NCBI GenBank assembly: GCA_040219255.1
Contig: JAVJSW010000054.1
Coordinates: 1 to 63,987, forward strand
From: Sumerlaeia bacterium
Lineage (GTDB): Bacteria; Sumerlaeota; Sumerlaeia; SLMS01; JAHLLQ01
Reading direction: 5' to 3'
Length of the DNA stretch: 63,987 bases
Below, piece after piece: positions 20,249 through 59,989 of the stretch. How positions within the stretch are numbered: the stretch's first letter is position 1; each line of letters begins with the position of its first letter. The position numbers were made by a program, and so were the translations under genes. The notes beneath the pieces are model-generated. The model ran no database searches, was not told where the DNA came from, and worked only from the letters and a program-made list of their open reading frames with translations.

Positions 20249-20489
20249 TAACCACAGAGGGCACAGAGGTTTGAGGTTTCACAGGGGGTTTTGGCCGCGG
20301 ATGAATGCGGATGAATAGGATTCTTGCAGTGCGTAGCTGAAAGCGCCAAAAAGTCGTATCGTGGTCGTAAGTACATCTCAGCCAAGAATTGGCCGTTTCC
20401 TATCAACAAGATCCCATTCATCTGCATCCATCCGCGGCTGATTCTTAGAACCTCTGTGTAGCCTCTGTTCTCTGAGTCCTCTGTGGTTA
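20249..20489. repeat. Nested double inverted-repeat element (outer CACAGAGG arms, inner GGATGAAT arms)
   Basis: 20249-20290 pairs with 20449-20489; 20294-20325 pairs with 20408-20438. Confidence 0.85.
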
Positions 20490-21911
20490 TCCCACATCCC
20501 GTACGCAACGCGCCACGCATTCAATATGGTACGTCTGCGGGAACATGTCCACCGGACAGAGCCGTTCGATGCGATAGCCTTCTTCGATGAGCTGCTCGAA
20601 ATCGCGGGCCATGGTCGTCGGATTGCAGGACACATACACCAGCACCGGCGCGTGCAGCCGCGCCAGTTGCGCCAGGGCTTTCTTCGCCATGCCGGCCCGC
20701 GGCGGATCGACCACCACCCGGTCCAGCGGCCCCGGCACGCTGCCCAGCAGTTTTGGCAACGTCATCGCCATGTCGCCCGCCATAAACGTGCAGTTTGACA
20801 AGCCATTGCGCCGCGCGTTTTCCCGCGCGTCCCAGATCGCTTCCTTGATAAGTTCAATGCCATAGATGTGATCGCACTGATCCGCGCAGAACTGCCCGAT
20901 CGTCCCCGTGCCGCAGTACGCGTCCAGCAACCGCTCGCGCCCCGTCAGAGCCAGATACTTCTTCGCCACCGTGTACAACTCGACCGCGCCGCGGGTGTTG
21001 GTCTGGAAGAAGGAGGCCAGGGAAATCTGGAACTTCAGGTCTCCCAGCCGCTCCTCAAGCAAGTCCTCGCCCCACGACCCCATCACCTCTTCCGCCCGCG
21101 CCACGTCGCTCTTGCCCGAGTTCAGCCCCCACACAAAACCCTTCACCGCCGGGCAGGCGTCCGTCAGCGCCGTGCGGAACGCATCGAAATCCACGCCCTT
21201 CGGCTCGGCCGTCAGCAGCGCCACCAGCACCCGCTGCTCGTGATCGCTCCATCGCAGCACCAACTGGCGCAGATTGCCCTCGTGGCGCGACGGGTTCCAG
21301 GCGGTCAATCCCTGCCGCTCGCCCTCGGCCCGCGCGGCGTCCAGCAGCGGATTCAGCACATCGGGCATCAACCAACAGCGCTCGATATTGAGGACCGACC
21401 GCCAATTGCCCGGCGTATGGAAGCCCAGCTTCAACGGCCCCTGACCGAATTCGCGGCCAAAGGTGAACTCCATCTTGTTGCGATAGTGGAACGTGCTTGG
21501 GCTCGGCACCAGCGGATCGGCGATCACCGTCTCCGGGTCCAGCCCCTTCACGCCGCGCAGCGCATCGCGCACGATCTGCTCTTTCCAGCGGCGCTGCTCC
21601 TCGATCGGCAGATGCTGCCAACTGCACCCGCCGCAGGTTCCGAAATGCGAGCAGGGCGGCTCGGCTCGTCCCGGAGCGGGGGTCAACACTTCCTCCAGCT
21701 CGGCCTCCGCAAAGGACGACTTCGCCTTCGTCACCCGCGCCCGCACCCGGTCGCCCGGCGCCGTGTAGGGCACGAAGACCACGAAATTATCCACCCGTCC
21801 CACACCCCGGCCACCATAGGCGAGGCCGTGGATATCCACGTCGATCAGTTCCTGCTTCTGCAGGCGGCGTTTTTTCTTCGGGGACTGGGGGGGCGAGGCG
21901 TCGGGGGAAAT
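20487..21911 (-). CDS. rlmD: 23S rRNA (uracil-1939-C5)-methyltransferase
   Basis: TRAM domain, CSHFGTCGGC Fe-S motif, YRNKMEF, FFQTN, DAYCGTG, DPPRAG, YVSCNP, DMFPQTYHIE; start uncertain (ATT at 21911 proposed, GTG at 21839 in track). Confidence 0.92.
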   Translation of the reverse strand: MSPDASPPQSPKKKRRLQKQELIDVDIHGLAYGGRGVGRVDNFVVFVPYTAPGDRVRARVTKAKSSFAEAELEEVLTPAPGRAEPPCSHFGTCGGCSWQHLPIEEQRRWKEQIVRDALRGVKGLDPETVIADPLVPSPSTFHYRNKMEFTFGREFGQGPLKLGFHTPGNWRSVLNIERCWLMPDVLNPLLDAARAEGERQGLTAWNPSRHEGNLRQLVLRWSDHEQRVLVALLTAEPKGVDFDAFRTALTDACPAVKGFVWGLNSGKSDVARAEEVMGSWGEDLLEERLGDLKFQISLASFFQTNTRGAVELYTVAKKYLALTGRERLLDAYCGTGTIGQFCADQCDHIYGIELIKEAIWDARENARRNGLSNCTFMAGDMAMTLPKLLGSVPGPLDRVVVDPPRAGMAKKALAQLARLHAPVLVYVSCNPTTMARDFEQLIEEGYRIERLCPVDMFPQTYHIECVARCVRDVG

Positions 21912-21942
21912 GGGCGGGGGCTCCGGGGTGGGGGTGGCGGGA

Positions 21943-22474
21943 TTTTACCACAGAGGGCACAGAGGACAGCGGTTAGACAGAGGGTGTGGCAGGGGAAGTG
22001 AACGCGGCATCGGGAAGGCCGTCAAGGGGCGAGGGCGGCGAGCCACGCAGCAAGAACAGACTTTTGCGGCGTCTTTCGGCAGGAGTAGCATTCCCCCACC
22101 ACCTCGCCATCGGACTCGAACCAGTACTCGCCCCACCCATGAATGGCATCGGGAAAGGGTGTTTCGCAGTAACTGATCTCGTCCGAATCGAAGATGTGAA
22201 CAAACTCCTTCGAGCCTGGCGGAGGCTGCAATTCGCCAGCCAGCAGGTCGGCCAACTGCCCCAAAGCCCGATGCCCTCCTGGCGACCACTTCGCCCAGAG
22301 AAGCACGATGCGGCACCCTTGATGCGTCTTCAGTTCCTCGGCACGAGAAAGCCAAATCCAATCCGGCTCCGGAAAGAACCGCACATCTTCGTAACCGATC
22401 ACACTAGCCTCAAACCAGCCATCACGGCTATCCACGCACAGAACATCTCCGTGCCTCTCTGTCTCTGTGGTGAA
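21943..22474. repeat. Inverted repeat pair enclosing a small ORF
   Basis: Left TTTTACCACAGAGGGCACAGAGG (21943-21965); right CTCCGTGCCTCTCTGTCTCTGTGGTGAA (22447-22474). Confidence 0.8.
22022..22435 (-). CDS. Hypothetical 137-aa protein, thioredoxin-like without CxxC
   Basis: RIVLLWAKWSPGG resembles the thioredoxin b2-a2 motif; lower GC than neighbours. Confidence 0.55.
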   Translation of the reverse strand: MDSRDGWFEASVIGYEDVRFFPEPDWIWLSRAEELKTHQGCRIVLLWAKWSPGGHRALGQLADLLAGELQPPPGSKEFVHIFDSDEISYCETPFPDAIHGWGEYWFESDGEVVGECYSCRKTPQKSVLAAWLAALAP

Positions 22475-24268
22475 TTACTTCTTCTTTTTCTTCTTATCCA
22501 TCGCCTGCTTCAGCAGATCCCCGAAGGCCCCGCCCGCGGCGGCCGATTCCTGCTCCGCCTGCTTCATGTAGGCTTTGATGTTTTCCTGCTCCATCTGGCG
22601 GATCGCCTGGCGGCGCGAGAGACTGATCCGGCCGCGGTCCGCATCCACCGAGAGCACCTTCACCGGGATTTCGTCATCCACGCGCACCACTCGCTCCGGC
22701 GAATCGACCCGCTCTTCGTCGAGTTCGCTCACGTGAACGAGACCGTCGAGGTTTTCCGCCACCTGGACAAACGCCCCGAAGGGCGCCAGCCGCGTGACCT
22801 TGGCGGTGAAGACCGAACCGACCGGGTGGGCCTCCATGAAGGCGTCCAGCGGCGACTGCTGCAACTGCTTCAGACCCAGGCTGATGCGGCGGCGGTCGCG
22901 GTCCAGTTCCAGCACCCGGACCTCGATCTCTTGCCCTTCATCCAGGTACTCGCTCGGATGGTTCGGGCGCTTGCCCCAGGCCAGATCTCCGATGTGCAGC
23001 AGCCCTTCGGTGTACCCGTCGAACTTCACGAACGCGCCAAAGTCGGTGATGCGGCTCACGATGCCCTTCTGGCGCGACCCGGCCGGGTAGCGCGCTTCCA
23101 CATCGGTCCAGGGGTCGCGGCTCAGGTGCTTGAGCGACAGCGACAGGCGCCGGTTCTGCTGGTCGATTTCCAGCACTTGGCAGGTCACCTGATCGCCCTC
23201 GCGGAACTTCTCTTTCGTCGAAACCTGCTCCGTCTCCCAGGAAAAATCCCGCGCGTGCAGCAGCCCCGTCAGCCCTTCCTCAAGATTCACGAACGCACCG
23301 TAGTCCTCGACCCGAGCCACCGTGCCGGACACGTTCGCCCCCACCGGGTAGTTCTCTTCCACATGGAGCCACGGATCGACGTTGAGGCGTTTGCGCGACA
23401 GCGTCACCTTGCCCGTGTCCGCGTTCACGTCCAGGATTTTCGCTTCGATTTCCTGACCCGGCTGGATCTGGTCAGCGGGCGACACACCCCGCTCGTAAGA
23501 CCACTCGCTGCGCGGTAGAAGCGCCTCGACCGGCCCGATATTCACGAAGACACCGAAATCCAGAACGTCGCGCACCGTGCCCTTGACTTTCTGGCCCGGC
23601 TTCAACTCCGTCAGGAATCCAGCCCGCTGGCTCTCGCGCCGTTCCTGCAGAAGCTGGCGCCGCGACACCAGCGCCCGGCCCCGCGATTCGTCGTACTCCA
23701 GAACGTACGCTTCGATTTCCTGACCCACCAGGCTGTCCAGATTCTCCACCCGCATCGTGTCCACCTGGCTGGCGGGCATAAAGCAATCCATGCCGCAATC
23801 GACGATCACGCCGCCCTTCACCACCCGGGTAATGCGGCCGCGCACCGGCAGCCGGCGCTCGGCCGCTTCCGAGAGCGCGCCCTTCGCTTCCTCAATGCGG
23901 GCCTTGCGATGACTCAGGATCGCGTTCCCCTCATCATCGTAACCCAGCAGCATCACCCGCACCTGGTCGCCCGCCTTCACCGTCGGCACGCCCTTGGGCC
24001 CGGCGAATTCGTTCATCGACAGCGTGCTTTCCGCCTTGCCGCCGAAATCCACCAGCACCGCGTCGTCGAGCAGGCCGACCACCACCGCGTCGAAGAGTTC
24101 GCCACTCGATTGCTTGCCACCGCCCGAAGGCAGGTGCGCGTTCAGCAGCGCCTCGAAATCTTCGTCGTCATCGTCCGCGGGAGCGGCGCCCGGCCGCGCC
24201 TTGGCGGTCATCGCCTTCTCCTTGGGATCATCGATGTAATCGGGGGCGTTGCGCAGATCGTCAGCCAT
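22475..24268 (-). CDS. rpsA: 30S ribosomal protein S1
   Basis: Six S1 repeats (FMPASQVD, DFGVFV, YGAFV, GLLH, ISLGLKQ). Confidence 0.95.
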   Translation of the reverse strand: MADDLRNAPDYIDDPKEKAMTAKARPGAAPADDDDEDFEALLNAHLPSGGGKQSSGELFDAVVVGLLDDAVLVDFGGKAESTLSMNEFAGPKGVPTVKAGDQVRVMLLGYDDEGNAILSHRKARIEEAKGALSEAAERRLPVRGRITRVVKGGVIVDCGMDCFMPASQVDTMRVENLDSLVGQEIEAYVLEYDESRGRALVSRRQLLQERRESQRAGFLTELKPGQKVKGTVRDVLDFGVFVNIGPVEALLPRSEWSYERGVSPADQIQPGQEIEAKILDVNADTGKVTLSRKRLNVDPWLHVEENYPVGANVSGTVARVEDYGAFVNLEEGLTGLLHARDFSWETEQVSTKEKFREGDQVTCQVLEIDQQNRRLSLSLKHLSRDPWTDVEARYPAGSRQKGIVSRITDFGAFVKFDGYTEGLLHIGDLAWGKRPNHPSEYLDEGQEIEVRVLELDRDRRRISLGLKQLQQSPLDAFMEAHPVGSVFTAKVTRLAPFGAFVQVAENLDGLVHVSELDEERVDSPERVVRVDDEIPVKVLSVDADRGRISLSRRQAIRQMEQENIKAYMKQAEQESAAAGGAFGDLLKQAMDKKKKKK

Positions 24269-24433
24269 GGAAGTGGGGTCTCTGTGGTTGGAGGTTGGAG
24301 GAATCAGAAAAGCCTGACCGAACGCCCCATCGGAATGGAGCGTAAAGGGCCGCCACGGTGCCCCTTCGCCGCGCGCTCGTCAAGCGGGTCCTTTGTGTGG
24401 GTGAGAAAGTTCGACGCACCACGCCACGCACGG

Positions 24434-24467
24434 AAAAGGCCCCGCCGGAACTCCCGCGGGGCCTCTT
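24434..24467 (-). terminator. Terminator of fasciclin gene
   Basis: Minus AAGAGGCCCCGCGGGAGTTCCGGCGGGGCCTTTT. Confidence 0.75.
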
Positions 24468-24555
24468 CGTTTCCGAACTCGATTCTCAATGACCAATCAA
24501 TCAATCGTGCTGGTCAATCAACGCATCTGAACGCAATGAATGCTTGCCGCGTGGA

Positions 24556-29367: not shown

Positions 29368-29487
29368 GGCCGCGCCTCGTTTTCTTGAACAGAATGCCGC
29401 GCCCCAACGGCGCCAGCAGCAAGCAACCGCCACAGGCCCGGGGGAACAAGGCCAAAGGCGGAGAGTGGTGGTAGATCGATTTTGTGG

Positions 29488-29636
29488 CCGCAGATGAATG
29501 CGGATGAATACGGATCTCTTGCATGTGAGTTTTCTTCCCGAAGAATAAGCCTTTGGCAACGGCATGAGATTGAGTTTCCAGCACCCGCCGCTGACGGCGG
29601 AACTCACTCATCCTATTTATCTGTATTCATCTGCGG
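29488..29636. repeat. Inverted repeat element (CCGCAGATGAAT arms)
   Basis: CCGCAGATGAATGCGGATGAATACGGAT (29488-29515) pairs with ATCCTATTTATCTGTATTCATCTGCGG (29610-29636). Confidence 0.85.
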
Positions 29637-29640
29637 TCAA

Positions 29641-30321
29641 TTAAAAGCCCTCCCACGCCCCCACATCCTCCACCCGCCCAAAAGCCTCCAGCAGCCCATG
29701 GTCGTGGGTGACCATGACGAGCGTTGCCCCCGCTTCCTCCGCCTGGGCGCAGAGCAGTTCGAGAATCCGCCGTTTGCCCGCCGGGTCCAGGTTCCCCGTC
29801 GGCTCGTCGCACAGCAGCAGCCGCGGCCGCGCCAGAAGCGCGCGGCAAATCGCCACCCGCTGCTTCTCCCCATGGGAGAGTTTGAGCACGTTGCGGCGCA
29901 GCTTCCCCCCCAGCCCCATGCCCTCCGCCAGTTCGGCCGCCCTGGCCTTGGCCGCCGCATCGCGCCGAACCCCGGCCCCCATGGCGCAGGGCAACAGGAT
30001 GTTCTCGCGCACAGTCAAATATTCCACCAGTTCGAAACTCTGAAACACGAAACCGACCTGCCTCGCGCGAAACGCTCGCCGCCCCGCCTCGGTCAGCGCC
30101 CCCACATCCGTCCCCCCGACCATCACACGGCCGCGTTCGGGCGCCGCGATGCCGCTCATCAAGTGCAGCAGCGTCGTCTTGCCCGACCCGCTCGGCCCGA
30201 CGAAGGCCACGCGCTCGCCCGCCGCGATGCGCAGCGCCGGCACCCGCAGCCGAAAGTCCGACCCGCGATACGCGAACTCGACGCCCTCCAGCGCGATCTC
30301 GGCCCCGCCCCGTTCCGTCAC
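29641..30321 (-). CDS. ABC transporter ATP-binding protein (LolD/MacB-type)
   Basis: GPSGSGKT, FVFQSF, LSHGEKQR, LCDEPTGNLD, VTHD; GTG start overlaps the upstream stop. Confidence 0.92.
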   Translation of the reverse strand: MTERGGAEIALEGVEFAYRGSDFRLRVPALRIAAGERVAFVGPSGSGKTTLLHLMSGIAAPERGRVMVGGTDVGALTEAGRRAFRARQVGFVFQSFELVEYLTVRENILLPCAMGAGVRRDAAAKARAAELAEGMGLGGKLRRNVLKLSHGEKQRVAICRALLARPRLLLCDEPTGNLDPAGKRRILELLCAQAEEAGATLVMVTHDHGLLEAFGRVEDVGAWEGF

Positions 30322-31538
30322 TGCGCCGCCTCCACGCTCAAGGTCCGCAGCCGCGACAGCTTCCACGCACCGTCGCTCACGGTGACCCGCAGGAGCGCCT
30401 CGGATATCGTTCCCCGCGGGTGTTTGTGGCCCCAGTGCGAGACCGTCCCCTCCGTCAGCCAACTGGCGCGGTAGGAAAACTCCGGCGCGTCGCCTCGTCC
30501 GCGCGCCTCGACCACCGCGCCGTAGAGCAATCGCACGCCCTCGATCCGCACCACGGCGCCGCTCTCCTGCTGGCCCAGCAGCGACTCGCGCATGCTCAGG
30601 TAAATCTGCGCCAGCAGCTCCCCCTCGATGCTCTTCGCGAGGGCGTCGTAAATCTCTTCTTCCGTGCGGAATTCGAAGGCGGCGTAGATGTTCTGGATCA
30701 GTCGCTCCACAATCGCGCGGGCTGCTTCGGATTCGGCAGCGACGGTGCCCTTGAAGAGGCGTTGCTCGGCGGCCGTGGCGGCGACCGGCTCGATCGCTGG
30801 CGGGTCCTTCACGACACCGGGATTGTCCCAGGCCATCACTGGATTGCCGGGCAGCAGCAGCCGCAGCGCAGGCTCCGTGTCGTAGGCCATCAGGATGCCC
30901 TGCACGCTCTCGACGCCAAACGCGTCGAATCGATCGAAAGTGAGGGCCGCCTCGGCGGGGGCGCGAACTCCCGCTTCATACGTGCTGATGATCCCCACCA
31001 GGGTGCGATCCGCCGGGATGGGTTCGGGCAGCGCGGCCCAGACATCGGCCCTGTCGAAATAGGTCACATAGATGTCGCTGGGCGCTTTCTCGAAGCCCTC
31101 GATCTCGACCGGGTTGGCGTCGAGAAAAGCCGCCGCGATGGCATCCGCGGCGGCGTAGCGCTCAGCCCGATCGAGGCTCTCTGTCGCCGCCCGGTCGACC
31201 GCTACGACGCGCTCCAGAATCGCCAGCGGCACCATCATCTCGTGGCGCACACGATGGCCGTCCAGATCCTCTTCCAGGTACAGAAACGAAACCACACCGC
31301 CCGTGCGCGCGGCTTGCTGGAGCACCGCATCCATCTCAAGTCCGCCGCCGGACTGAGGTTTGGGAGCGTCCTGAGCCCGCACCGAAACCGCCCAAAGGCA
31401 CCAGCCGAGCAAGAAAGGTAACACGGCCGTCCCGGCCGTGACCCGCCACGCTTTCCCGCCAAGAGACGATCGGACGGGGCGGATCGGGACGGGGCACAGG
31501 CCACCCGAAAGTTTTCTGGTTTTCGACAAAAGCGTCAT
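30318..31538 (-). CDS. Exported hypothetical protein coupled to ABC ATPase
   Basis: Signal-like segment ending VRAQ; C-terminal NIYAAFEFRTEEEIYDAL...GTVSHWGHKHPR; start uncertain. Confidence 0.7.
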   Translation of the reverse strand: MTLLSKTRKLSGGLCPVPIRPVRSSLGGKAWRVTAGTAVLPFLLGWCLWAVSVRAQDAPKPQSGGGLEMDAVLQQAARTGGVVSFLYLEEDLDGHRVRHEMMVPLAILERVVAVDRAATESLDRAERYAAADAIAAAFLDANPVEIEGFEKAPSDIYVTYFDRADVWAALPEPIPADRTLVGIISTYEAGVRAPAEAALTFDRFDAFGVESVQGILMAYDTEPALRLLLPGNPVMAWDNPGVVKDPPAIEPVAATAAEQRLFKGTVAAESEAARAIVERLIQNIYAAFEFRTEEEIYDALAKSIEGELLAQIYLSMRESLLGQQESGAVVRIEGVRLLYGAVVEARGRGDAPEFSYRASWLTEGTVSHWGHKHPRGTISEALLRVTVSDGAWKLSRLRTLSVEAAQ

Positions 31539-38091: not shown

Positions 38092-38438
38092 TCACCGCCG
38101 CGACCCCAGGACCCCGAAGTTCCTCCGAACTTCCGGCGCGAAAGCCACTCCGTCGCACCGCCTGCGGTCGAAGAGTCTTTTTTCCATAAACCACAAATGA
38201 TGACCAGATTTCTGATGGTCTTTCAAGCCGTCTGGAGTTCCTGAACGAAAATGCGCCCTGGTCTTGCAGTCACCCCGAACACGGCAAGGCTTCCCCGATC
38301 TCCATACTAACTTCTTTGAATACAGCAATCTCTGTGTTCTCCGTGACTCTGTTGTTATTTCTGAAGACTCAGGGCGCCGACACAGATCCCATACCTCCCC
38401 GCTAAAATCCTCAGCCTCCTCCGCGCCCCTGCCGTGAA
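38092..38438. repeat. Degenerate (probably nested) inverted-repeat element between mrpA and metY
   Basis: Right arms CTCTGTGTTCTCCGTGACTCTGTTGTT (38330-38356) and CCTCAGCCTCCTCCGCGCCCCTGCCGTGAA (38409-38438); weaker left arms near 38092 and 38189; AT-rich core. Confidence 0.5.
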
Positions 38439-38440
38439 TT

Positions 38441-38480
38441 AAAACAAAAGTCCCCCGCCCGCAAACCGCCAGCGGAGGAC
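38441..38480 (-). terminator. Terminator of metY
   Basis: Minus GTCCTCCGCT...GGCGGGGGAC-TTTTGTTTT. Confidence 0.7.
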
Positions 38481-40410: not shown

Positions 40411-40554
40411 AGAGGACGTTCCGCCTTCTCATATTCCCCATTATTGGAGTCGGTATAAAGAAAAACTCGGCTCGAATGCCGTCAATTGAAAACGGAGGCT
40501 CAATGCTTGCAGCGACCCGGCCGTACCACCCCCCCCACCCGAAAGGCCCTCCGC

Positions 40555-41112
40555 ATGCTCTTCACCGCCTGGCAAGACCTCGCTCGCACCGCCATCGTCG
40601 GCACCCTCGCCTACCTCGCCCTCGTCTTTCTCCTGCGCATCAGCGGCAAGCGCACCCTCTCCAAAATGAACGCCTTCGACCTCGTCGTCACCGTCGCCCT
40701 CGGCTCCACCCTCGCCGCCACCATGCTCAATAAGAGCATCACTCTCGCCGAAGGCGCCACCGGCTTCTTCGTCCTCGTCGCCGTCCAGTACATCCTCACC
40801 TGGCTCAGCGTCCGCTCGCGCTTCGTCCGCCGCCTCGTCAAGAGCGAACCCACCCTCCTCGCCTTCCGCGGCCAGATGCTCGAGCGAGCCATGAAAGAGC
40901 AACGCGTCACGCAAGACGAACTCGCCTCCGCCCTGCGCCACTCCGGCGCCGCCGGCCTCGAAGACATCGAAGCCGTCGTCCTCGAAACTAACGCCGATCT
41001 CACCATCGTCAAGAAATCCGGCCAGGGCCCCGCCGCCCAAAGCGTCCTCAACGTCCGCGGCTATCCCGACCCCACCGGCGCCCACCCCCAAAGCCCCCGG
41101 CACGACCCGTAG
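40555..41112 (+). CDS. DUF421/YetF family membrane protein
   Basis: GKRTLSKMNAFDLVVTVALGS, EPTLL, VVLETNADL. Confidence 0.9.
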   Translation: MLFTAWQDLARTAIVGTLAYLALVFLLRISGKRTLSKMNAFDLVVTVALGSTLAATMLNKSITLAEGATGFFVLVAVQYILTWLSVRSRFVRRLVKSEPTLLAFRGQMLERAMKEQRVTQDELASALRHSGAAGLEDIEAVVLETNADLTIVKKSGQGPAAQSVLNVRGYPDPTGAHPQSPRHDP

Positions 41113-41143: not shown

Positions 41144-41172
41144 AAAGGGCGCCGTCCATCACGGCGCCCTTT
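41144..41172. terminator. Bidirectional terminator between yetF-like gene and nuoM
   Basis: Perfect stem AAAGGGCGCCGT-CCATC-ACGGCGCCCTTT between convergent genes. Confidence 0.8.
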
Positions 41173-41394
41173 CGCGCATGTCGCATAAGTCTGTCTTGTG
41201 AATCGTGTCTCACAAGTCTGATAAGTGAATCTTGTCTATCTTGTTCCCGAAGCTCCACATGAGGGGACAAACCAAAACTCTTGTGCAACCCTTTCGCCAT
41301 TCCAGCCCAACACGCCGGTCACCCCGGCCCGGAGTTTACCATGGCGAACCATCCCACGCACACTCAGACGCTCGCTCCCCCGCGAGCCACCCCC

Positions 41395-41429
41395 CTTTGC
41401 CCCTTTGATCCTTCGCGTCTTTGCGTTAA
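41395..41429. repeat. Periodic repeat arm 10 nt after nuoM stop
   Basis: Minus TTAACGCAAAGACGCGAAGGATCAAAGGGGCAAAG. Confidence 0.6.
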
Positions 41430-41439: not shown

Positions 41440-43092
41440 TCAGTGCCCGTGCCCGTGGTCGTCGGCGGCCGCTTCGGCCACCATCACGTCACGCTCCGGC
41501 GGTGTCTCGTAGCCCTCCAGATGCTTCGCGATCATCGCCAGCGCCGGCTCCGAATAGCTCCGCACCGGCTTGAAGATCAGGTTCGGGAACAGACCCAGGA
41601 TCAGAGCCGCCGCCGACAACGCCACCAGCATCCCCATCTCGCGGAAGTTCACGTCCGCCATCTTCTGATTCTTGGGATTCGTCAGCTTGCCGAAGAACGT
41701 CTTCTGATACATCAGCAGCAGATAGACCGCGCCCCAGATCACGCCCGTCGCCGCGATCAGCGCGATCAGCCACGTATAATGCCGCATCCCGAACAGCGCG
41801 TACAGCGAACCGGGCTCGTTGCTGAACGACAGGATCGGCGTGTTCTGCATCGAACCCATCAGGATCGGGAACTCGCCCACGAAACCGTTCAGACCCGGCA
41901 GGCCCACGCTGCTCAGCACCATCACCATGGCCAGCGCCGCCATCACCGGCACCCGCGCCGCCAGACCGCCGAACTCGCTCAAGAGACGCGTATGCCGCCG
42001 CTCGTAAATCATACCCACCACGAGGAACAACCCGCCGGTGGAAATACCGTGGTTCACCATCTGGATGATCGCGCCGTCCATGCCCGGACCGTTGAAGGAG
42101 AAAATCCCCAGCGTGATGAAACCCATGTGGCTCACCGAGGAGTAGGCCACCAGGCGCTTCATGTCCTTCTGCACCATGGCCGCCATGGCGCCGTACACGA
42201 TGGCGATGGCGCTCAGCCACGTCAGCGACGGCGCGAACGCCACCGCCACATCGGGGAACAGCGGGATGTTGAACCGCAGGATACCGTACACGCCGGTCTT
42301 CAGCAGCACCGCCGCCAGGATCACCGACCCCGCCGTCGGGGCCTCGGTGTGCGCGTCGGGCAACCAGGTATGGAACGGGAACAGCGGAATCTTGATCAGG
42401 AACGCGATCAGAATCCCCAGGAACGGCCACACGGCGCCGCGGAAAATCTCCGCCGTCTGCGCCTGCTGCAGGAGCAGCTCGTAACTGAAGGTCTGGATCG
42501 GGGCATTGAAGTACACCCAGATGAACGCCAGCAGCATCATCAGCGAACCCACCAGCGTATAGACCACGAACTTCATCGTGGCGTACACCCGGTTGCCCGA
42601 GCCCCAGATACCGATCATGAAGTACAACGGAATCAGCATCAGCTCGAACCCGACGTAGAACACGAACATGTCCAGCGCGCTGAAGGTCAGCATGATACCC
42701 GTCTGCAAAATCAGCAGGAACAGGTAGAATTCTTTCTCGCGGTGCTTGATCGCCGAGAACGAACACAGCACCCCGAACACGCCGATAAACGCCGCCAGCA
42801 GGATCAGGATCATCGACAGCGAATCGACCCCCACCGTATAGCGGACGCCCTCGAAAATCGGCCAAGCCACCGAAGCCCGCAGTTGGAAGGCGGTCTCCAC
42901 CGCTTCGCCCTGAATGATCACCGTCTGGGGATCGATACCGCCCCAGTTGAAAAACAGCGCCGCCGCCAACGCCGCGACCAGGTCCAGCAGGACAATGCCC
43001 AGTGCCCAGATCTTCATCTGCTTGGCCGGAGCGAACGCCGCCGCCACCAGACCGAGCACCAGGGGGATGAAAATGACGAGTGTCAGCAACAT
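41440..43092 (-). CDS. nuoM: NADH-quinone oxidoreductase subunit M
   Basis: FELMLIP, KIPLFPFHTWLPDAHTEAPTAGS, AYSSVSHMG, GLPGLNGFVGEF. Confidence 0.96.
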   Translation of the reverse strand: MLLTLVIFIPLVLGLVAAAFAPAKQMKIWALGIVLLDLVAALAAALFFNWGGIDPQTVIIQGEAVETAFQLRASVAWPIFEGVRYTVGVDSLSMILILLAAFIGVFGVLCSFSAIKHREKEFYLFLLILQTGIMLTFSALDMFVFYVGFELMLIPLYFMIGIWGSGNRVYATMKFVVYTLVGSLMMLLAFIWVYFNAPIQTFSYELLLQQAQTAEIFRGAVWPFLGILIAFLIKIPLFPFHTWLPDAHTEAPTAGSVILAAVLLKTGVYGILRFNIPLFPDVAVAFAPSLTWLSAIAIVYGAMAAMVQKDMKRLVAYSSVSHMGFITLGIFSFNGPGMDGAIIQMVNHGISTGGLFLVVGMIYERRHTRLLSEFGGLAARVPVMAALAMVMVLSSVGLPGLNGFVGEFPILMGSMQNTPILSFSNEPGSLYALFGMRHYTWLIALIAATGVIWGAVYLLLMYQKTFFGKLTNPKNQKMADVNFREMGMLVALSAAALILGLFPNLIFKPVRSYSEPALAMIAKHLEGYETPPERDVMVAEAAADDHGHGH

Positions 43093-47989: not shown

Positions 47990-47995
47990 AGGAGC

Positions 47996-50681: not shown

Positions 50682-50685
50682 CACC

Positions 50686-50782: not shown

Positions 50783-53509
50783 TCAGCGCTCCGTCGGGTC
50801 GGACCCGATGGCGGCCTTCTCGTCTTCGTCGGTGATGGCTTTGCCCTGGTCCGGAACGGCCTCCGCCAAGCCCTCGATCTTGACGCGCACGGGACCCGGG
50901 AAGGCGGCGGCGTCGAAGGGGCCGGCGGTGCCAGCGGAGAGGTAAACGGTTCCCGGAGCGGGGCCATCGTTGATTTTCACGCCGACTTTGGCGCGCTTGT
51001 CCTCAATCGAAACAATGGCGAAATGATCGACTGCGACGCCGAGTCTGGCGGCGTCGGTGCGGTTGACTTCGAGCCAGGGCTTCGGGGCCAGGATGTCGGC
51101 GATGGCGGCGCGGTTGGCGATGTAGCCCTTGCCGGAGACGTGGGGACCCCAGACGAGAATGGGGCCGTCGCCAGCGGGAACGGCTGGGGCCTGATAGTCC
51201 ATGGGCTGATCGGCGTCGGCGCCGTCGAGTCGGCGAAGCTGAAGGCCATCGTCGCGGAAGTTGCCGGGATTGAAGCGTTTGGCGCGCGTGCGGGCGCCGC
51301 CGCGGGTTCCCACGGTGTGGTAGGAGGCGTCGTTGCTGGAGCCTTCGATTTCGAGGTGGCGGAGGGTGATGGAACTGTCGGGCGCGATCACGGCGCGGAC
51401 GGCGGCCCAGGCTTCCTCGGCGTCCATGTGGCCAAAGGTCTCGGCGCCGAGGAGGCGGCCGAGGGTGGTGAGGATCTGGCGGGCCGGGCGGGCGTCGCCC
51501 TGCGGTTCCTCGGCTTGCTTGAGGAGGGCGAGGTTGCCCTGAATGTCGGCGTAAACGCCGTCGTTCTCGATCTGTGCGGTCTGGGCCAGATAGACGTCGG
51601 CGCGGTCGTTGATGTCGCTGCGGAAGAGGTCGATGGTCACGAAAGCGTCGAGCTTGTCGATGGCGGCGGCCAATCCCTTTTGATCGCGGAGATTCAGGAG
51701 CGCATCGGTGCCGACGGTGAGGAGGCCCTTGACCTTGCCCTCGGCGATCGCGGCCAGGACGCCGGTGGCGGCGAGGCCCTCGGCGTCGGGCTCGACCCCG
51801 GCGGCGTGGAGGCCGACCGCATTGCGGCCGCCGACAACGGGGAGGTAACCCCAGTCGCGGGCGAGGGCGCGGCGCAGGCCGACAGCGGCGGGGACTTCGA
51901 GGGGGGCGTAGGCTCCGGCGTAGTCTTCCAGGCCATGGACCAGAAGTCCGTTGGCGGTGTTCTTGAGCAAATCCACCAGGGAGTCGACGGAGGCGTCGCC
52001 CACCGGAGCGAGCAAGCCACCCAGTCCGTCGGCGGAACCGCCCTCGGCGATGGCTCCCGCCAAGGCCCGCAGCGCGTCGCCGGTCTTGCCGAGTTCGCAG
52101 TGGAACGCCATCGTGGCGTGGGCCCCGATGTAGGCGTCGTGGTGATGGCCGATCATGACGGTCGGGATGTCGAAGCGGCGGGCCAGTTCCTGGAGCTGAA
52201 GCGCCAGCACGGGCGATTGCGCGACCGGATTGCCGTTCACGACGACGAGGGCGCCGGGGTGGGCCTGCAAGTCGCCGTCGGCGGCGGCGAGGGCGCGGCT
52301 GACGGCGTTGGCGGCGGCGGTGTTGGCAAAGGAGGAACGCCAATCGACGTTGGGGGTGCCGATGACTTCCTTGGCGAGATTGCGCGCCAGGAAGCCTTCC
52401 TCGAGGGTGGCCATGGGGCTGACGAGGACGGCGACGCTTTGGGCTCCGTGCTTGGCGATGACGTCCTTGAGAGCCTCCGCGGCGGTCTTGGTGGCTTCCT
52501 CGTAGGTCGTCGGCGAGAGGGAGCCGCCGCGTTTGACCATGTGTTCGTCGGCGCGGCCTTCGTGTTGGCTGTAATCGCTGCCGAAGCGGCCTTCGTTACA
52601 GATGAACTCGACGGTGTCTTCGTTGATCGTGAAGTGGTCGTGGCGGTGCCGGCTCGGCGGCGTGGTGCGGTAGAGGCGGCCGTTGCGGGTCCAGTAGGTC
52701 ACTTTGCAGCCGGACGAACACATCGAGCAGGTGCTCTGGGTCTGGCGCAGTTCCCACGGGCGGGCCTTGAAACGGTAGGGCTTGCTGGTGAGACAGCCGA
52801 CCGGGCAGAGGTCGATGACGTTGCCCGAGAAGATGTTGCTGACGGGGCCCTGGCCAAAGGTGCCGATGTAGGTGCCATTGCCGCGGTCGAAGGCGCCCAT
52901 GACGTGCTCGCCGCCGACTTCGTCGCAGAAGCGCACACAACGGGTGCACATGATGCAGCGGTTGCGCTCGATGTCGATCAGGGGGTCGGCCTGGGGCTTG
53001 ATGAACTTGCGCTTCTTGTCGGCCATGCGGGTCGTGTCGAGGCCGTACTCCATCGAATACCGCTGGAGCTGGCACTCGCCGCCGCGGTCGCAAATCGGAC
53101 AATCGAGCGGGTGATTGACCAGCAGGAACTCCATCATGCCTTCCTGGCAGGACTTGGCGAGTTCGCTGTCGGTCTTGACCACCATGTCGGGCATGATGTG
53201 GGTCTGGCAGGAGATGACGGGCTTGGGAACCTTTTCGACCTCGACAAGGCACAGGCGGCAGTTGCCGGCGACGGAGAGAGCCGGGTGCCAGCAGTAGTGG
53301 GGCACGTAGGTGCCTTCGCGCTCGCAGACTTCGAGGATGGATTCACCGCGCCGGCCGAAGACTTCTTTGCCGTTGAGCGTGAACTTCACCGCGTCGGGAG
53401 CTTGCGGGTCCACCTTGTCGTACACGACATTGTGATCCGACGGATAGCCGACCGTGGCGCCGATTCCGGGCGCGGGCTGCTTCGGGGGAGCTTTTGTTTC
53501 ACCGGACAT
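50783..53509 (-). CDS. nuoG: NADH-quinone oxidoreductase subunit G
   Basis: CWHPALSVAGNCRLC, HPLDCPICDRGGEC, CIMCTRC, N7-type CSMCSSGC...C. Confidence 0.95.
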   Translation of the reverse strand: MSGETKAPPKQPAPGIGATVGYPSDHNVVYDKVDPQAPDAVKFTLNGKEVFGRRGESILEVCEREGTYVPHYCWHPALSVAGNCRLCLVEVEKVPKPVISCQTHIMPDMVVKTDSELAKSCQEGMMEFLLVNHPLDCPICDRGGECQLQRYSMEYGLDTTRMADKKRKFIKPQADPLIDIERNRCIMCTRCVRFCDEVGGEHVMGAFDRGNGTYIGTFGQGPVSNIFSGNVIDLCPVGCLTSKPYRFKARPWELRQTQSTCSMCSSGCKVTYWTRNGRLYRTTPPSRHRHDHFTINEDTVEFICNEGRFGSDYSQHEGRADEHMVKRGGSLSPTTYEEATKTAAEALKDVIAKHGAQSVAVLVSPMATLEEGFLARNLAKEVIGTPNVDWRSSFANTAAANAVSRALAAADGDLQAHPGALVVVNGNPVAQSPVLALQLQELARRFDIPTVMIGHHHDAYIGAHATMAFHCELGKTGDALRALAGAIAEGGSADGLGGLLAPVGDASVDSLVDLLKNTANGLLVHGLEDYAGAYAPLEVPAAVGLRRALARDWGYLPVVGGRNAVGLHAAGVEPDAEGLAATGVLAAIAEGKVKGLLTVGTDALLNLRDQKGLAAAIDKLDAFVTIDLFRSDINDRADVYLAQTAQIENDGVYADIQGNLALLKQAEEPQGDARPARQILTTLGRLLGAETFGHMDAEEAWAAVRAVIAPDSSITLRHLEIEGSSNDASYHTVGTRGGARTRAKRFNPGNFRDDGLQLRRLDGADADQPMDYQAPAVPAGDGPILVWGPHVSGKGYIANRAAIADILAPKPWLEVNRTDAARLGVAVDHFAIVSIEDKRAKVGVKINDGPAPGTVYLSAGTAGPFDAAAFPGPVRVKIEGLAEAVPDQGKAITDEDEKAAIGSDPTER

Positions 53510-53682
53510 AAGTGCGTCTTTCGCCTGCCTCTCAAACTTCGTGGCCTAGGTTGAAAACCTCCGGCCCCTGTGCGCGCAAGGGTTTCCTTGTGCCCCATTT
53601 GAGCCAATGGGGCGGGGTCAGCCTGCGGGCTGGGTTTGTATTGCAAGGATGATGCGCTTGAGCGTTGAAGTACCGCTAAAGT

Positions 53683-53710
53683 TTCACCACGGAGACGCGG
53701 AGGCACGGAG
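53683..53710. repeat. Periodic repeat arm
   Basis: TTCACCACGGAGACGCGGAGGCACGGAG, very similar to the reverse complement of 22447-22474. Confidence 0.75.
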
Positions 53711-54866: not shown

Positions 54867-54954
54867 TGGTTGACGGACACACGCCTCGTTTGGGTGAGTT
54901 GCCGCGCCTCGACGCGATTGGGGCTTTCTACACCTCCGAACGAATCCCGGCCCC

Positions 54955-57898: not shown

Positions 57899-58087
57899 GT
57901 GGAAGGCGGCCCGCCAGTCCCACCTCGACACTGACGCCCAGGCGCGGGCATCAGGCACTGGGCAACGGCGAGGCCAGCAAGACTGGCCACCCTCTGTTGG
58001 TCCTTCCGTGTTCGTGGCTCATTGTAAATCCAAGAAACCAAGGACGCCCACAGGGGGCTTCTGTTTTTTTGGGGTCGAGGTGAAGGA

Positions 58088-58510
58088 TCAGGAAGCGGGC
58101 CGAACGCCCACCGGAGGCCCTGTTCCCGCTCCCCCCGTTCCTGTGGAAATGTCCTCACCGTGTTGCGGGTTGTCTTGGGTTCTCTCGCCGCGTTTCGACG
58201 GGAGAGGCCTCACAAGCAGCTTCTCGCCGAGGTAGCTGAGAGCCGCGGCAATCACGAGGATCGGTCCGGCGGCGACGGCGGCGAAATAGGCGATGGCGTA
58301 GAAAAGCCCCAGGCTGGCGGCCAGGAACCAGTCGCCCTCGGCCAGGGGCACCGTGCCGGAGAGAACGGCGGTGTGGGCGCGCCAGCCCGCCAGTTCCCCG
58401 ATCAGCCACAGCAGCGCGAACAGCCCGGCGAGCTTGAGGAACAGCCGGTGCGGCAAGTAGCTCCGGGTGGACTCGGGGATGAAGAGGGCTTTCCAGCGGG
58501 GGCGGGTCAT
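58088..58510 (-). CDS. Small membrane protein coupled to LinD-like gene
   Basis: Two to three TM helices; ATGA overlap with the upstream gene. Confidence 0.7.
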   Translation of the reverse strand: MTRPRWKALFIPESTRSYLPHRLFLKLAGLFALLWLIGELAGWRAHTAVLSGTVPLAEGDWFLAASLGLFYAIAYFAAVAAGPILVIAAALSYLGEKLLVRPLPSKRGERTQDNPQHGEDISTGTGGAGTGPPVGVRPAS

Positions 58511-59718
58511 GGGCGGGTTTCCCTTTGCGATTCGAGAATGCGGGCCCAGAGGGGCCCTTCGACCAGGGCGTAGAGCACCACCGCGTCGCCCACCTGGTTG
58601 GCGGCGGCGAAGCGCTGGCGGCCGTCCTCTGTGACGGGAAAGGCCGCGAACTCGAGGGACGCCACGAGGCGGCCGAGATAGGCGTCGTCATCGAAGGACG
58701 CGGCGCCCAGCAGGGCGAGACCACTGGCTCCGGCGCTGGCGCCGATGACGGGCACCACGGGCCCCGAGTCGACGTCCATCGGCCCCTGCCAACTGGCGGG
58801 CCATTCGCGGGCGAGGCCAAAGCCCAGGATGTGGAAGCCCAGCTGCTCGCGGGCGAGGGCGTACTGCTCCATGGCGAACTGGGCGTCGATCAGGCGCAAG
58901 CAGTGGGCGGTCATGAAAATGCTCGACCCTTCCGGCCCGTCGATGGCCGAGCCCTCCCAGGTGAAGCTGGAAACCAGCATGGCGGAGTCGCGGTGGATCA
59001 GGTTCTCGCGCGCCGAAGCGAGCCAATCGTCGAAGAAAGCGCGGTGATCGGTGCCGTCCAGCGCGTCGCTCAGGGCCATCGCCGCCAGTGCCACGGCGTT
59101 GCAGAACATCCAGCACTCGTTGGGGTAGCTTTCGCCACAGTGCACCGGCCCGGCCTCCATCTGCCGGCGCAGATGGGCGATGCGTTCGGCGAAACCGTCG
59201 GCATAGGCCGGTTCTTCCCGCACCAGGCGGCGGGCGCCGATCATCAGGGCGATCTCGCCATCCACGAAGACGCTGCGCTGCGACTCCTCCACAAACGGCG
59301 AAGCGCGCGCGTAATCCATCAGGAAGTGCAGATGGCCCTCCTGCGCTTCGATGGCTTCGGTCTCGGCGATCACGCGATCCATCACGGCCAGGTAACGATC
59401 AGCTTGACCGGGATCGCGCAGGCTGAGGTTGGCGAGCGAGAGCACGAAAAACGTGCGGGCCATAAAGTCCCACTCCGCGTTCGTGCGGCGCATGCGGGCG
59501 ATTTCTTCGGCCCGGGCGGCGGGGTCTTCCCACAGCGAAAGCTGGTGTTCCGCCAGCCGCTGGGCCAGGGCCGGGACGGCATTGGGCGGCGCCAGGTACT
59601 CGGCCCTGGCGGGGCGGAAGAGCAGGCTGAGAACCGGCAGCCAGAGGGCCGCTCCGATGGCGAGCGCACCCCCGGCGATCAGAAGGCGCTGGCCGAAGCG
59701 TTTGAGCGTTGGGGGCAT
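58507..59718 (-). CDS. Membrane-anchored linalool dehydratase/isomerase-like protein
   Basis: N-terminal TM helix, GESYPNECWMFCN, AREWP, DVDSGP motifs; family call from recall, not searched. Confidence 0.6.
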   Translation of the reverse strand: MPPTLKRFGQRLLIAGGALAIGAALWLPVLSLLFRPARAEYLAPPNAVPALAQRLAEHQLSLWEDPAARAEEIARMRRTNAEWDFMARTFFVLSLANLSLRDPGQADRYLAVMDRVIAETEAIEAQEGHLHFLMDYARASPFVEESQRSVFVDGEIALMIGARRLVREEPAYADGFAERIAHLRRQMEAGPVHCGESYPNECWMFCNAVALAAMALSDALDGTDHRAFFDDWLASARENLIHRDSAMLVSSFTWEGSAIDGPEGSSIFMTAHCLRLIDAQFAMEQYALAREQLGFHILGFGLAREWPASWQGPMDVDSGPVVPVIGASAGASGLALLGAASFDDDAYLGRLVASLEFAAFPVTEDGRQRFAAANQVGDAVVLYALVEGPLWARILESQRETRP

Positions 59719-59934
59719 GGGAGGTCCTCCCGCAGGGGCGTTTGTTGGAGTCTTACGCGCGAGCGGAGAAATGGTTACAGGATCCGATGCCTTGAGAATT
59801 CACCACCGAGCCACCAAGGGCACTGGGAATTTTGGGATTATTGGAGTTGGGGCAGGGAAATCTTGAGGAGCGAACGCTTGTGCGGGTGACTCCCGGCGCC
59901 ACCTTTGGCCCAGAGACTGTGACCTGACGAGGTG

Positions 59935-59989
59935 AAAGTGTGACCCATGTCCTGGCCCGAATGTGTTACCTATGTCTCCGGTTCGTACA
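59935..59989. mobile_element. Orphan IS481-family terminal repeat
   Basis: AAAGTGTGACCCATGTC...GTGTTACCTATGTCTCCGGTTCGTACA: two sub-terminal direct repeats and a terminal ACA; no transposase nearby. Confidence 0.6.

What the first reader, a model, noticed from the sequence alone, without database searches (positions are those of the whole stretch)
20249..59936. Dispersed family of 9-10-nt-periodic inverted-repeat arms at gene ends: candidate cassette-like mobile system
Seen: at least seven sites (20249-20489, 21943-22474, 29488-29636, 38092-38438, 41395-41429, 53683-53710, 59799-59827). They share a terminus like WW(C/A)ACCACRGAG, TTAACGCAAAG or CCGCAGATG followed by 2-4 degenerate periodic units, with the purine-rich strand facing inward where pairs are seen. 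Several begin on or within 10 nt of a stop codon (rlmD, rpsA, ABC ATPase, nuoM). They enclose lower-GC filler or small ORFs, and no transposase or integrase is nearby. From recall, similar arms flank GxxExxY and four-helix-bundle genes in PVC genomes; I know of no established mechanism. Inference: recognition sites for a trans-acting nuclease or recombinase that inserts cargo behind genes without disrupting them.
Basis: partly seen in the sequence, partly recalled or inferred. Interest (0 to 1): 0.8.

Follow-up and report, generated by a model that had tools for sequence, protein, structure and literature searches.

The report
Repeat-armed mini-cassettes inserted behind genes
The window holds several copies of a genome-wide family of small DNA inserts bounded by mirror-image arms of short tandem repeats; they sit right after the stop codons of ordinary genes, are missing at the same places in related bacteria, and their rare gene-carrying members encode a small nuclease-like protein, so they look like a mobile element of a kind I found no description of.

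Summary
The window has 14 chains of at least two arm units, against 3.8 expected. The genome has 176 arms of at least three units, against 4 for a reversed-motif control. Almost all are intergenic, and many abut a stop codon.

About 60 arms pair up as inverted doublets of 100-470 bp. The two arms of a doublet always belong to the same unit family. The cores are unrelated to each other and AT-rich.

Four of the five GxxExxY (PD-(D/E)XK) genes in this genome sit exactly between such arms, each with a different arm family. The same holds for 42 of 78 GxxExxY loci from other phyla. In relatives, 21 of 24 four-helix-bundle genes have arms of the same architecture but different 6-8-nt units.

Three insertion sites could be compared with relatives, and all are empty there. 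Two congeneric genomes differ by whole cassettes bounded by arm modules.

Most likely this is a non-autonomous DNA cassette family moved in trans. GxxExxY is the leading candidate enzyme, but this is unproven. No integron integrase was found, and no RAYT lies next to arms. No wobble bias supports an RNA stem. One 335-bp subfamily has 7-9-bp target duplications. I found no paper describing the arms.

The parts
20249..20287 (+). Site 1, outer left arm (CACAGAG-type units, purine-rich strand reading inward). It starts 13 nt upstream of the start codon of the ABC-2 gene, which is on the minus strand.
   Evidence: (I3)
20294..20321 (+). Site 1, inner left arm (GCGGATGAAT units, period 10).
   Evidence: (I6, 89% complementary)
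20322..20410 (.). Site 1, unique AT-rich core (GC 0.47).
20411..20438 (-). Site 1, inner right arm.
   Evidence: I6
20451..20489 (-). Site 1, outer right arm. Its terminal TTA (20487-20489) is the stop codon of rlmD (minus strand).
21943..21985 (+). Site 2, left arm (CACAGAG type).
22022..22435 (-). Site 2, candidate cargo ORF of 137 aa. It has no Pfam match and no relative anywhere, so its coding status is uncertain.
22445..22474 (-). Site 2, right arm (CACRGAG type). It abuts the rpsA stop codon (22475-22477).
29486..29515 (+). Site 3, left arm (GCRGATGAAT units).
   Evidence: (I2)
29516..29609 (.). Site 3, unique core.
29610..29639 (-). Site 3, right arm, 2 nt from the ABC-ATPase stop codon (29641-29643).
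38330..38356 (-). Site 4, arm of two clear units (CACGGAG / CACAGAG).
38409..38441 (-). Site 4, degenerate arm of the CGCNGAG family. It resembles the right arm of the GxxExxY cassette on contig C59.
   Evidence: by eye
41394..41429 (-). Site 5, solo arm of the CGCAAAG family, 10 nt downstream of the nuoM stop codon.
53682..53710 (+). Site 6, solo arm of three CACGGAG-type units.
59797..59852 (+). Site 7, degenerate solo arm with the conserved inner extension of the 'TCACCACAGAG' subfamily.
   Evidence: by eye

Best explanation
The arms are the two ends of a family of small DNA cassettes that are inserted into the chromosome and lost from it at the DNA level.

Anatomy of a cassette:
- A 5' arm of 2-4 tandem units of 8-10 nt. 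The general unit is C-R-C-R-G-A-K plus a 1-3-nt spacer, with the purine-rich strand reading inward.
- A core.
- An inverse copy of the same arm.

Full-size members (about 430 bp) carry one gene for a 124-aa PD-(D/E)XK protein of the GxxExxY family. Its start codon sits at the inner edge of the 5' arm and its stop codon sits just before the 3' arm. Most copies in this genome are gene-less doublets of 100-300 bp, or solo arms, and cannot move by themselves.

I infer that they are moved in trans. The GxxExxY nuclease is the leading candidate to recognise arms of its own type. The relation would be that of non-coding REPIN doublets to their single RAYT gene, but with a different enzyme and different ends.

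Insertion lands at the boundary just 3' of a host stop codon, often inside an operon junction. The arm sometimes supplies a new stop codon, so both neighbouring genes stay whole.

Shown: enrichment, pairing, same-family arms, gene-arm linkage across phyla, empty sites in relatives, cassette gain or loss between congeners, intact catalytic residues.

Inferred: DNA-level transposition or recombination at the arms, trans-action, and the identity of the enzyme.
For: Enrichment and position:
- 176 arms against 4 for the control.
- 3 of 176 arms lie in coding DNA. 54 of 176 lie within 30 nt after a stop codon, against 121 of 5000 random intergenic positions.

Pairing:
- 38 strict inverted pairs, plus 23 added by eye. 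The two arms of a pair are always of one family.

Link to GxxExxY:
- 4 of 5 GxxExxY genes are flanked by arms, each with a different arm family that also has gene-less doublets.
- Of 80 GxxExxY loci from other phyla, 78 could be scored. 42 have flanking periodic inverted repeats, against 0 of 78 in the control.
- Arm type clusters on the protein tree: 19 changes against at least 21 in all 500 shuffles.
- E28, D68, E78 and K80 are conserved. The model is confident, pLDDT 96, with a restriction-endonuclease-like fold. Its neighbours are Cas4, Hjc and restriction-enzyme domains at Z 6.5-7.9.

Empty sites in relatives:
- The rlmD/ABC-2 junction is empty in 5 of 6 relatives read. The sixth holds a different inverted-repeat insert.
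- The GxxExxY cassette on C35 is absent in 6 of 6 syntenic relatives.
- The doublet on C35 is absent in 3 of 3.
- G043 has about 1.6 kb of extra cassettes between arm modules that G025 lacks.

Co-occurrence across 44 genomes:
- Arms are present in 33 of 36 genomes with the gene.
- Arms are present in 2 of 8 genomes without it.

Foreign-looking cores: GC 0.474 against 0.599 for other intergenic DNA.
Against: - The cores of 60 doublets are unrelated to each other. The doublets therefore did not spread as copies of one unit, as REPINs or MITEs do.
- 0 of 361 arm-adjacent segments keep detectable GxxExxY similarity. Decay from gene-bearing cassettes is thus not demonstrated.
- No consistent target-site duplication is visible at simple doublets or gene cassettes.
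- Four-helix-bundle genes, which are not nucleases, have arms of the same architecture. This suggests the enclosed gene may be cargo and the enzyme may lie elsewhere.
- Co-occurrence is partly built in, because each gene brings its own two arms. The genomes are also related to one another.
- Three genomes have the gene but no match to the strict pattern, and two have arms without the gene.
- No binding, cleavage, excision product or circular junction has been seen.
Confidence: 0.5

Rival explanations
1. These are ordinary MITEs. The arms are subterminal binding sites of a DDE transposase encoded elsewhere, or lost from or unassembled in this draft genome. The elements transpose by cut-and-paste with target duplication. 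GxxExxY and the other small genes are passenger cargo.
For: A subfamily of about 335 bp has 8 near-full-length copies at 81-92% identity plus 3 diverged or partial ones. It has an outer terminal inverted repeat outside the arms. Direct repeats of 7-9 bp flank 6 of the 11 aligned copies, read by eye. 28 arms carry the same outer motif.
Against: The other 60 doublets share no internal sequence. They show no consistent target duplication. Only 1 pair with the outer motif at both ends was found. No transposase family has been linked to the arms, although DDE families were not searched. Arm sequence varies freely between cassettes while the architecture is kept, which is unusual for transposase binding sites.
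Confidence: 0.2
2. This is an integron-like system. The arms act like attC sites, with conserved structure and free sequence. A tyrosine recombinase inserts and excises promoterless cassettes, singly behind genes or in arrays.
For: In G025 and G043, arrays of small cassettes are separated by repeated arm modules, and cassette content differs between the two species. The cargo there is small and resembles toxin-antitoxin genes. Paired arms fold as long hairpins. A multi-copy tyrosine recombinase exists in the genome.
Against: No integron integrase reaches its cut-off: best 66 bits against 265. The multi-copy recombinase has no arms next to it. In this genome the elements are dispersed, not arrayed. 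Most arm termini lack AAC...GTT-type cores, read by eye.
Confidence: 0.1
3. The arms work at the RNA level. Co-transcribed with the upstream gene, the two arms pair into a long stem that is cut by RNase III or that stabilises or insulates the transcript. This would resemble the stems of ORF-bearing intervening sequences in 23S rRNA. Spread of the elements would be secondary.
For: The elements lie inside operons directly after stop codons: 37 of 58 lie between co-directional genes. Predicted stems are strong. From recall, the four-helix-bundle family is the one found in rRNA intervening sequences; its Pfam name is 23S_rRNA_IVP. Arm units contain GGAG/GAGG just upstream of the cargo start codon.
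Against: Arm mismatches show no G-U bias on the sense strand: 78 G-U against 96 A-C and 175 other, over 74 cassettes. Rfam has no match. A stem does not explain the tandem periodicity, the solo arms or the presence/absence polymorphism.
Confidence: 0.12
4. The arms are chance simple-sequence repeats or assembly artefacts.
For: Some contig ends in this draft carry perfect hairpin inverted repeats that look like artefacts.
Against: 176 arms against 4 for the control. The same architecture appears in 42 of 78 loci from named genomes of other phyla. The arms lie inside contigs, next to conserved genes.
Confidence: 0.01

Closest known systems
REPIN doublets and their RAYT gene (abstracts of PMC3116915 and PMC3337134, seen in the listing)
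   Same: Non-coding inverted doublets lie dispersed in intergenic DNA. A low-copy gene is itself flanked by the same repeats in inverted orientation. There are several repeat families per genome, each tied to its own gene copy. Repeats and gene co-occur across genomes.
   Different: The enclosed gene is a PD-(D/E)XK protein, not a Y1/HUH transposase. The arms are tandem 8-10-nt units, not single palindromes. The doublet cores are unrelated to each other. The two Y1_Tnp genes of this genome are not next to arms.
Integron gene cassettes with attC sites (from established knowledge)
   Same: Small, mostly promoterless cargo is bounded by imperfect inverted repeats whose structure is conserved but whose sequence is not. 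Arrays with variable cassette content occur in relatives.
   Different: No IntI was found. In this genome the elements are dispersed singly behind housekeeping genes. The arms are tandem repeats on both sides of the cargo, rather than one attC per cassette.
MITEs (from established knowledge)
   Same: They are short and non-coding, bounded by terminal inverted repeats, intergenic and high in copy number. One 335-bp subfamily has target duplications.
   Different: There is no shared internal sequence among 60 doublets. Most show no target duplication. The gene-bearing relatives carry a 124-aa nuclease-fold protein, not a known transposase.
ORF-bearing intervening sequences of 23S rRNA (recalled; no paper read here)
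   Same: A small gene of the same family (PF05635) is enclosed by complementary flanks that can form a stem.
   Different: Here the elements lie in intergenic DNA behind protein-coding genes, not in rRNA. No PF05635 gene was found in this genome.
Short tandemly repeated repetitive (STRR) heptamers of cyanobacteria (recalled; one search found only passing mentions)
   Same: Dispersed intergenic tandem repeats of 7 nt. The arms of the four-helix-bundle cassettes in relatives are of this kind.
   Different: From recall, STRR were described as tandem arrays, not as matched inverted arms around a cassette. The link was not tested.

Membership tests
REP/REPIN-RAYT system | A Y1 (HUH) transposase gene flanked by the repeats | tested here: not met
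   The two Y1_Tnp matches (C68:109316, C56:126591) have no arm within 2 kb. The C56 gene is flanked by a different palindrome.
REP/REPIN-RAYT system | Inverted doublets whose copies share arms and spacer (the doublet is the replicating unit) | tested here: not met
   The arms are shared, but the cores of 60 doublets are unrelated.
REP/REPIN-RAYT system | Repeat family and associated gene co-occur across genomes | tested here: met
   Tested for GxxExxY in place of RAYT. Arms are present in 33 of 36 genomes with the gene and in 2 of 8 without it. The genomes are related to one another.
Integron | An IntI-type integrase | tested here: not met
   The best TIGR02249 match scores 66 bits against a cut-off of 265. 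All 14 matches are below the cut-off. The genome is 92% complete.
Integron | Cassette array next to attI and the integrase | tested here: inconclusive
   Arrays were seen in G025 and G043, but their neighbourhood was not searched for an integrase. No array was seen in this genome.
MITE | Terminal inverted repeats plus target-site duplication | tested here: inconclusive
   Met for the 335-bp subfamily: direct repeats of 7-9 bp at 6 of 11 aligned copies. Not seen at the other doublets or at the three junctions aligned with empty sites.
MITE | Copies of a family share internal sequence | tested here: not met
   Only the two GxxExxY genes and one nested self-match link any of the 60 interiors. The 335-bp subfamily is the exception.
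GxxExxY / PDDEXK_3 protein family (cargo of full-size cassettes) | Match to PF13366 over its cut-off, with the G-x-x-E-x-x-Y motif and the D...E-x-K residues | tested here: met
   Five matches of 68-149 bits against a cut-off of 22. G25, E28, Y31, D68, E78 and K80 are conserved in 32 sequences.
Known RNA families (Rfam) | A covariance-model match at the gathering score | tested here: not met
   0 matches in the window.

The most novel reading that the evidence does not exclude
This is a class of mobile element found across phyla that I could not find described. Its ends are defined by architecture (matched inverted arrays of short tandem units), not by sequence. Its mobilising enzyme is a minimal 124-aa PD-(D/E)XK nuclease (GxxExxY). 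The nuclease would act on the hairpin or cruciform formed by the arms. It would target the boundary just after stop codons. Four-helix-bundle cassettes would be a sister lineage using the same end architecture.
Probability: 0.3. Interest if true: 0.9.

Novelty: new variant of a known kind. Interest (0 to 1): 0.72.

Why it matters
GxxExxY and four-helix-bundle proteins are two of the commonest small 'function unknown' families in environmental bacteria. Linking them to a defined, countable DNA architecture gives a concrete hypothesis for both.

If the small nuclease moves the elements, it would be a new route to DNA mobility. It would also be a very compact system that inserts DNA next to stop codons without harming genes.

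Even if the enzyme lies elsewhere, three things follow:
- The arms explain hundreds of spurious small ORFs in draft genomes.
- They mark sites of gene-cassette turnover.
- They change the C-termini and the translational coupling of housekeeping genes such as rlmD.

Tried and rejected
- k-mer enrichment was swamped by codon bias.
- A general inverted-repeat scan was mostly noise. It did show that no other tandem-repeat arm type exists in this genome.
- Sequencing runs gave only low-depth Logan contigs from one study. One joint, 21982 to 22442 in X1 with a 34-nt side, probably comes from another arm-bearing locus. Nothing can be said on excision or circles.
- A metagenome scan with the ABC-2 protein found no relative.
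- Synteny around sites 3, 4 and 5 is not kept in 11 relatives, so no empty-site test was possible there.
- Rfam gave no match.
- A PDB sequence search with GxxExxY gave only chance-level rows.
- Residual GxxExxY coding signal in arm-adjacent DNA: 0 of 361 segments.
- A search for the outer terminal repeat of the 335-bp subfamility at other doublets found 28 arms but only 1 pair.
- The cargo ORF at 22022-22435 has no Pfam family, no relative in 60 genomes of the class, and none among 5.8 billion proteins except its own truncated call.
- The multi-copy tyrosine recombinase has no arms beside it.
- Papers:
  - Searches for GxxExxY, PDDEXK_3/PF13366, TIGR02436/TIGR04256, MITE plus PVC phyla, STRR, and literal arm sequences found no description of the arms.
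  - Only passages were read: one in bioRxiv 10.1101/2021.01.26.428298 and one table row in PMC3424549. That row lists PDDEXK_3 as 'unknown' with multiple transfers.
  - The supplements of PMC3424549 were not available and may say more about the family.
  - Subscription journals were not searched, so 'not in print' holds only for these searches.
- Plasmid search: 8 records carry a GxxExxY gene. Their flanks were not examined.

Full report
**What is in the window**

All seven listed sites hold arms built of 2-4 tandem units of 8-10 nt.

- Site 1 (20249-20489) is nested. Outer CACAGAG-type arms enclose inner GCGGATGAAT-type arms, which enclose an 89-nt core. The two arm pairs are among the longest inverted repeats of the window. 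The whole site folds as one DNA hairpin of -55.6 kcal/mol, z = -7.5.
- Site 2 (21943-22474) encloses a 137-aa ORF.
- Site 3 (29486-29639) encloses a 94-nt core. Folded as RNA its z-score is -3.3.
- Sites 5, 6 and 7 are solo arms, and site 7 is degenerate.
- Site 4 has two arms on one strand, but its proposed left partner at 38092 is doubtful.

The neighbouring genes were named with Pfam:

| Gene | Coordinates | Strand |
|---|---|---|
| ABC-2 permease | 19297-20235 | - |
| rlmD-like | 20487-21839 | - |
| ABC ATPase | 29641-30462 | - |
| nuoM | 41440-43092 | - |
| nuoG | 50783-53509 | - |

rpsA (22475-24268, minus strand) was named from its translation. The stop codons of rlmD, rpsA, the ABC ATPase and nuoM lie in the arm terminus or 0-10 nt from it.

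**Is it more than chance**

- The window has 14 chains of at least two units, against 3.8 on average (maximum 11) in 200 Markov simulations.
- The 5.35-Mb draft genome (83 contigs, GC 63.6%) has 176 chains of at least three units, against 4 for the reversed motif. It has 627 chains of at least two units, against 166.
- A strict three-unit IUPAC pattern matches 94 times, against 2 for its control.
- By unit, the 176 arms split into 89 CACRGAG, 48 CGCNGAG, 36 CRCRGAT and 3 CRCRAAG.
- With a rough home-made gene caller, only 3 of the 176 lie in confident coding DNA.
- 54 of the 176 start within 30 nt after the stop codon of a gene reading into them, against 121 of 5000 random intergenic positions.

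**Anatomy**

Pairing a plus-oriented arm with the next minus-oriented arm gave 121 candidates. Of these, 38 have arm identity of at least 0.6. I added 23 asymmetric pairs by eye.

Sizes run from 101 to 521 bp, plus one of 1452 bp. The two arms of a pair always belong to one family. All termini fit T-N-R-C-C-R-C-R-G-A-K.

Composite ends recur, with a CACRGAG arm followed by a GCCRCRGATGA arm. Site 1 and several other loci show this.

The interiors of 60 doublets share nothing with each other. The only links are between the two GxxExxY genes and one nested self-match. The cores are AT-rich: median GC is 0.474 in 54 cores, against 0.599 in 1831 other intergenic stretches.

Of 58 doublets with two neighbours, 37 lie between co-directional genes, 12 between convergent genes and 9 between divergent genes. 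The background gaps are 684, 187 and 345. Where a gene's 3' end faces a doublet, the stop codon is within 31 nt in 34 of 61 cases.

**Cargo**

The genome has five PF13366 (GxxExxY) genes and no PF05635 gene. Four of the five sit exactly between arms. Each of the four has a different arm family: CACGGAG, GCAGATGAAT, CGCAGAG and CGCAAAG. In each, the start codon is at the inner edge of the 5' arm and the stop codon is just before the 3' arm.

I fetched 80 GxxExxY loci from named genomes of at least nine phyla. Of these, 78 could be scored:
- 42 have a flanking inverted repeat with score of at least 14, against 0 of 78 in a reversed control.
- The arms are again periodic, with lineage-specific units such as CACGGAG, CACAGAG, CGCAAAG, CACGAAG and CAGYGAG.
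- Some Acidobacteria instead carry an arm-loop-arm hairpin just downstream of the gene.

On a tree of 40 such proteins the arm type clusters: 19 changes, against at least 21 in all 500 shuffles. It still changes often, and close relatives differ by one base carried through all units of both arms. This points to concerted change of the two arms.

In relatives of this genome, 21 of 24 PF05635 (four-helix-bundle) genes examined also lie between matched inverted tandem-repeat arms. Their units are quite different, with periods of 6-8 nt. So the architecture is conserved and the sequence is not.

The purine-rich strand reads inward in 55 of 74 scored cassettes and outward in 13.

The window's own cargo ORF has no relative anywhere, so it may not be a gene.

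**Mobility**

The closest genomes held are other genera of the same family, at about 70% nucleotide identity. Three sites keep synteny.

*Site 1, the rlmD/ABC-2 junction:*
- In 5 of 6 relatives read, the rlmD stop overlaps or nearly touches the ABC-2 start, and nothing lies between them.
- Here the 241-bp element sits exactly there.
- rlmD ends in four different residues, with its stop codon inside the arm.
- The ABC-2 gene has a new start 13 nt beyond the other arm.
- The sixth relative (G006) has a different inverted-repeat insert of about 200 bp at the same junction, flanked by a 14-nt direct repeat.

*The GxxExxY cassette at C35:23790-24225:*
- By spacing, it is absent in 6 of 6 syntenic relatives.
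- In the four aligned, the upstream gene here reads 5 extra codons into the arm and stops there.
- The downstream start codon follows the other arm by 10 nt.

*The 166-bp doublet at C35:15974-16139:*
- It starts 5 nt after a stop codon.
- It is absent in 3 of 3 syntenic relatives.

*Cassette arrays in two congeners:*
- G025 and G043 carry arrays of small cassettes separated by repeated modules of several arm types.
- G043 has about 1.6 kb of extra cassettes that G025 lacks, between flanks 77-87% identical.
- The cargo there includes an AbiEii-like fragment and small ORFs with no family.

Arm counts among 31 relatives range from 0 to 94 and are patchy even within genera.

**Which enzyme**

*GxxExxY:*
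- It keeps the PD-(D/E)XK residues E28, D68, E78 and K80.
- Its model is confident, pLDDT 96.2.
- Its fold neighbours are generic for that superfamily: an uncharacterised restriction-endonuclease-like protein, Cas4, the BpuSI nuclease domain and Hjc, at Z 6.8-7.9. Foldseek E-values are 0.008 or weaker.

*Co-occurrence:*
- The held phylum has 44 genomes at least 90% complete, all in one class.
- The strict arm pattern is present in 33 of 36 genomes with the gene and in 2 of 8 without it.
- Fisher p = 0.0003 and Spearman rho = 0.67.
- The genomes are related to one another, and each gene brings its own two arms.
- 22 of the 36 have more than four arms per gene.

*Other candidates:*
- No integron integrase reaches its cut-off.
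- The two Y1 transposase genes are not near arms.
- A multi-copy tyrosine recombinase element has no arms beside it.
- A subfamily of about 335 bp is a true MITE. It has 8 copies at 81-92% identity, an outer terminal repeat outside the arms, and direct repeats of 7-9 bp at 6 of 11 aligned copies.

**RNA or DNA**

Mismatches between the two arms show no excess of G-U pairs on the sense strand: 78 G-U, 96 A-C and 175 other, over 74 cassettes. Rfam has no match. This does not exclude an RNA role, but it gives no support for selection on an RNA stem.

**Reading**

The arms are ends of DNA cassettes that are gained and lost at gene boundaries. The gene-less majority must depend on something supplied in trans.

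The parallel with REPINs and RAYT is close in logic:
- The gene is flanked by its own repeats.
- There is one repeat family per gene copy.
- Repeats and gene co-occur across genomes.

The system fails the defining tests for membership, because the enzyme is not a Y1 transposase and the doublets share no spacer.

The unrelated cores and the armed four-helix-bundle genes are the main arguments that the enclosed genes are cargo and the enzyme is still unknown.

I put the DNA-cassette model with GxxExxY as lead candidate at 0.5. Mobility itself I rate much higher than the enzyme assignment.

**Known or new**

Searches of the held paper library found no description of these arms. PDDEXK_3 is listed there as of unknown function with multiple transfers (passage in PMC3424549).

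The general kind, a small non-autonomous mobile insert, is known. The end architecture, the cargo link and the stop-codon-adjacent placement are not described in what I could search.

Noticed in passing
window 41195-41346: A second dispersed repeat, unrelated to the arms. It has 57 BLAST matches in this genome at 76-95% identity, with a conserved core of about 60 nt. It lies beside the solo arm of site 5. Rfam gives no match. It could be a promoter or leader, or a small RNA.
   Followed up: partly
G000 contigs C27, C60, C68 (e.g. C27:27261-27286): A GTAG-tagged REP-like palindrome family. One variant, read by eye at C60:331674-331699, has 14 exact copies of a 19-nt core. One Y1_Tnp gene (C56:126591-126803) is flanked by a different palindrome, as RAYT genes are.
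   Followed up: partly
G000 C47:3053-4363 (minus strand), C68:309655-310392, and the ends of C68, C10 and C40: A multi-copy element encoding a 437-aa tyrosine recombinase, with copies at 89-94% identity. Several copies sit at contig ends, so it is probably an unresolved mobile element. No arms lie beside it.
   Followed up: partly
G000 C68:305926-306260 and at least 7 other loci: A MITE of about 335 bp. It carries an arm at each end inside an outer terminal inverted repeat, and it has direct repeats of 7-9 bp at its flanks.
   Followed up: yes
L009 (G006:C2), about 2810-3010: A different inverted-repeat insert of about 200 bp lies at the same rlmD/ABC-2 junction as site 1. It is flanked by a 14-nt direct repeat of the junction sequence, so this boundary has been hit independently in another genus.
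   Followed up: partly
G000 contig ends: C1:1-293, C12:2-350, C14:1-242, C74:1-206, C65:121789-122058: Perfect or near-perfect hairpin inverted repeats of 94-139 nt with tiny loops sit at contig ends. They are most likely assembly artefacts.
   Followed up: no
L123 (G043:C154) and L124 (G025:C65): Arrays of small cassettes separated by repeated modules of about 250 bp. Each module is made of several arm types plus a GTAG palindrome. Cassette content differs between the two species.
   Followed up: partly
window 41145-41172: A G+C-rich hairpin followed by T residues lies downstream of the plus-strand gene 40486-41112 and looks like an intrinsic terminator.
   Followed up: no
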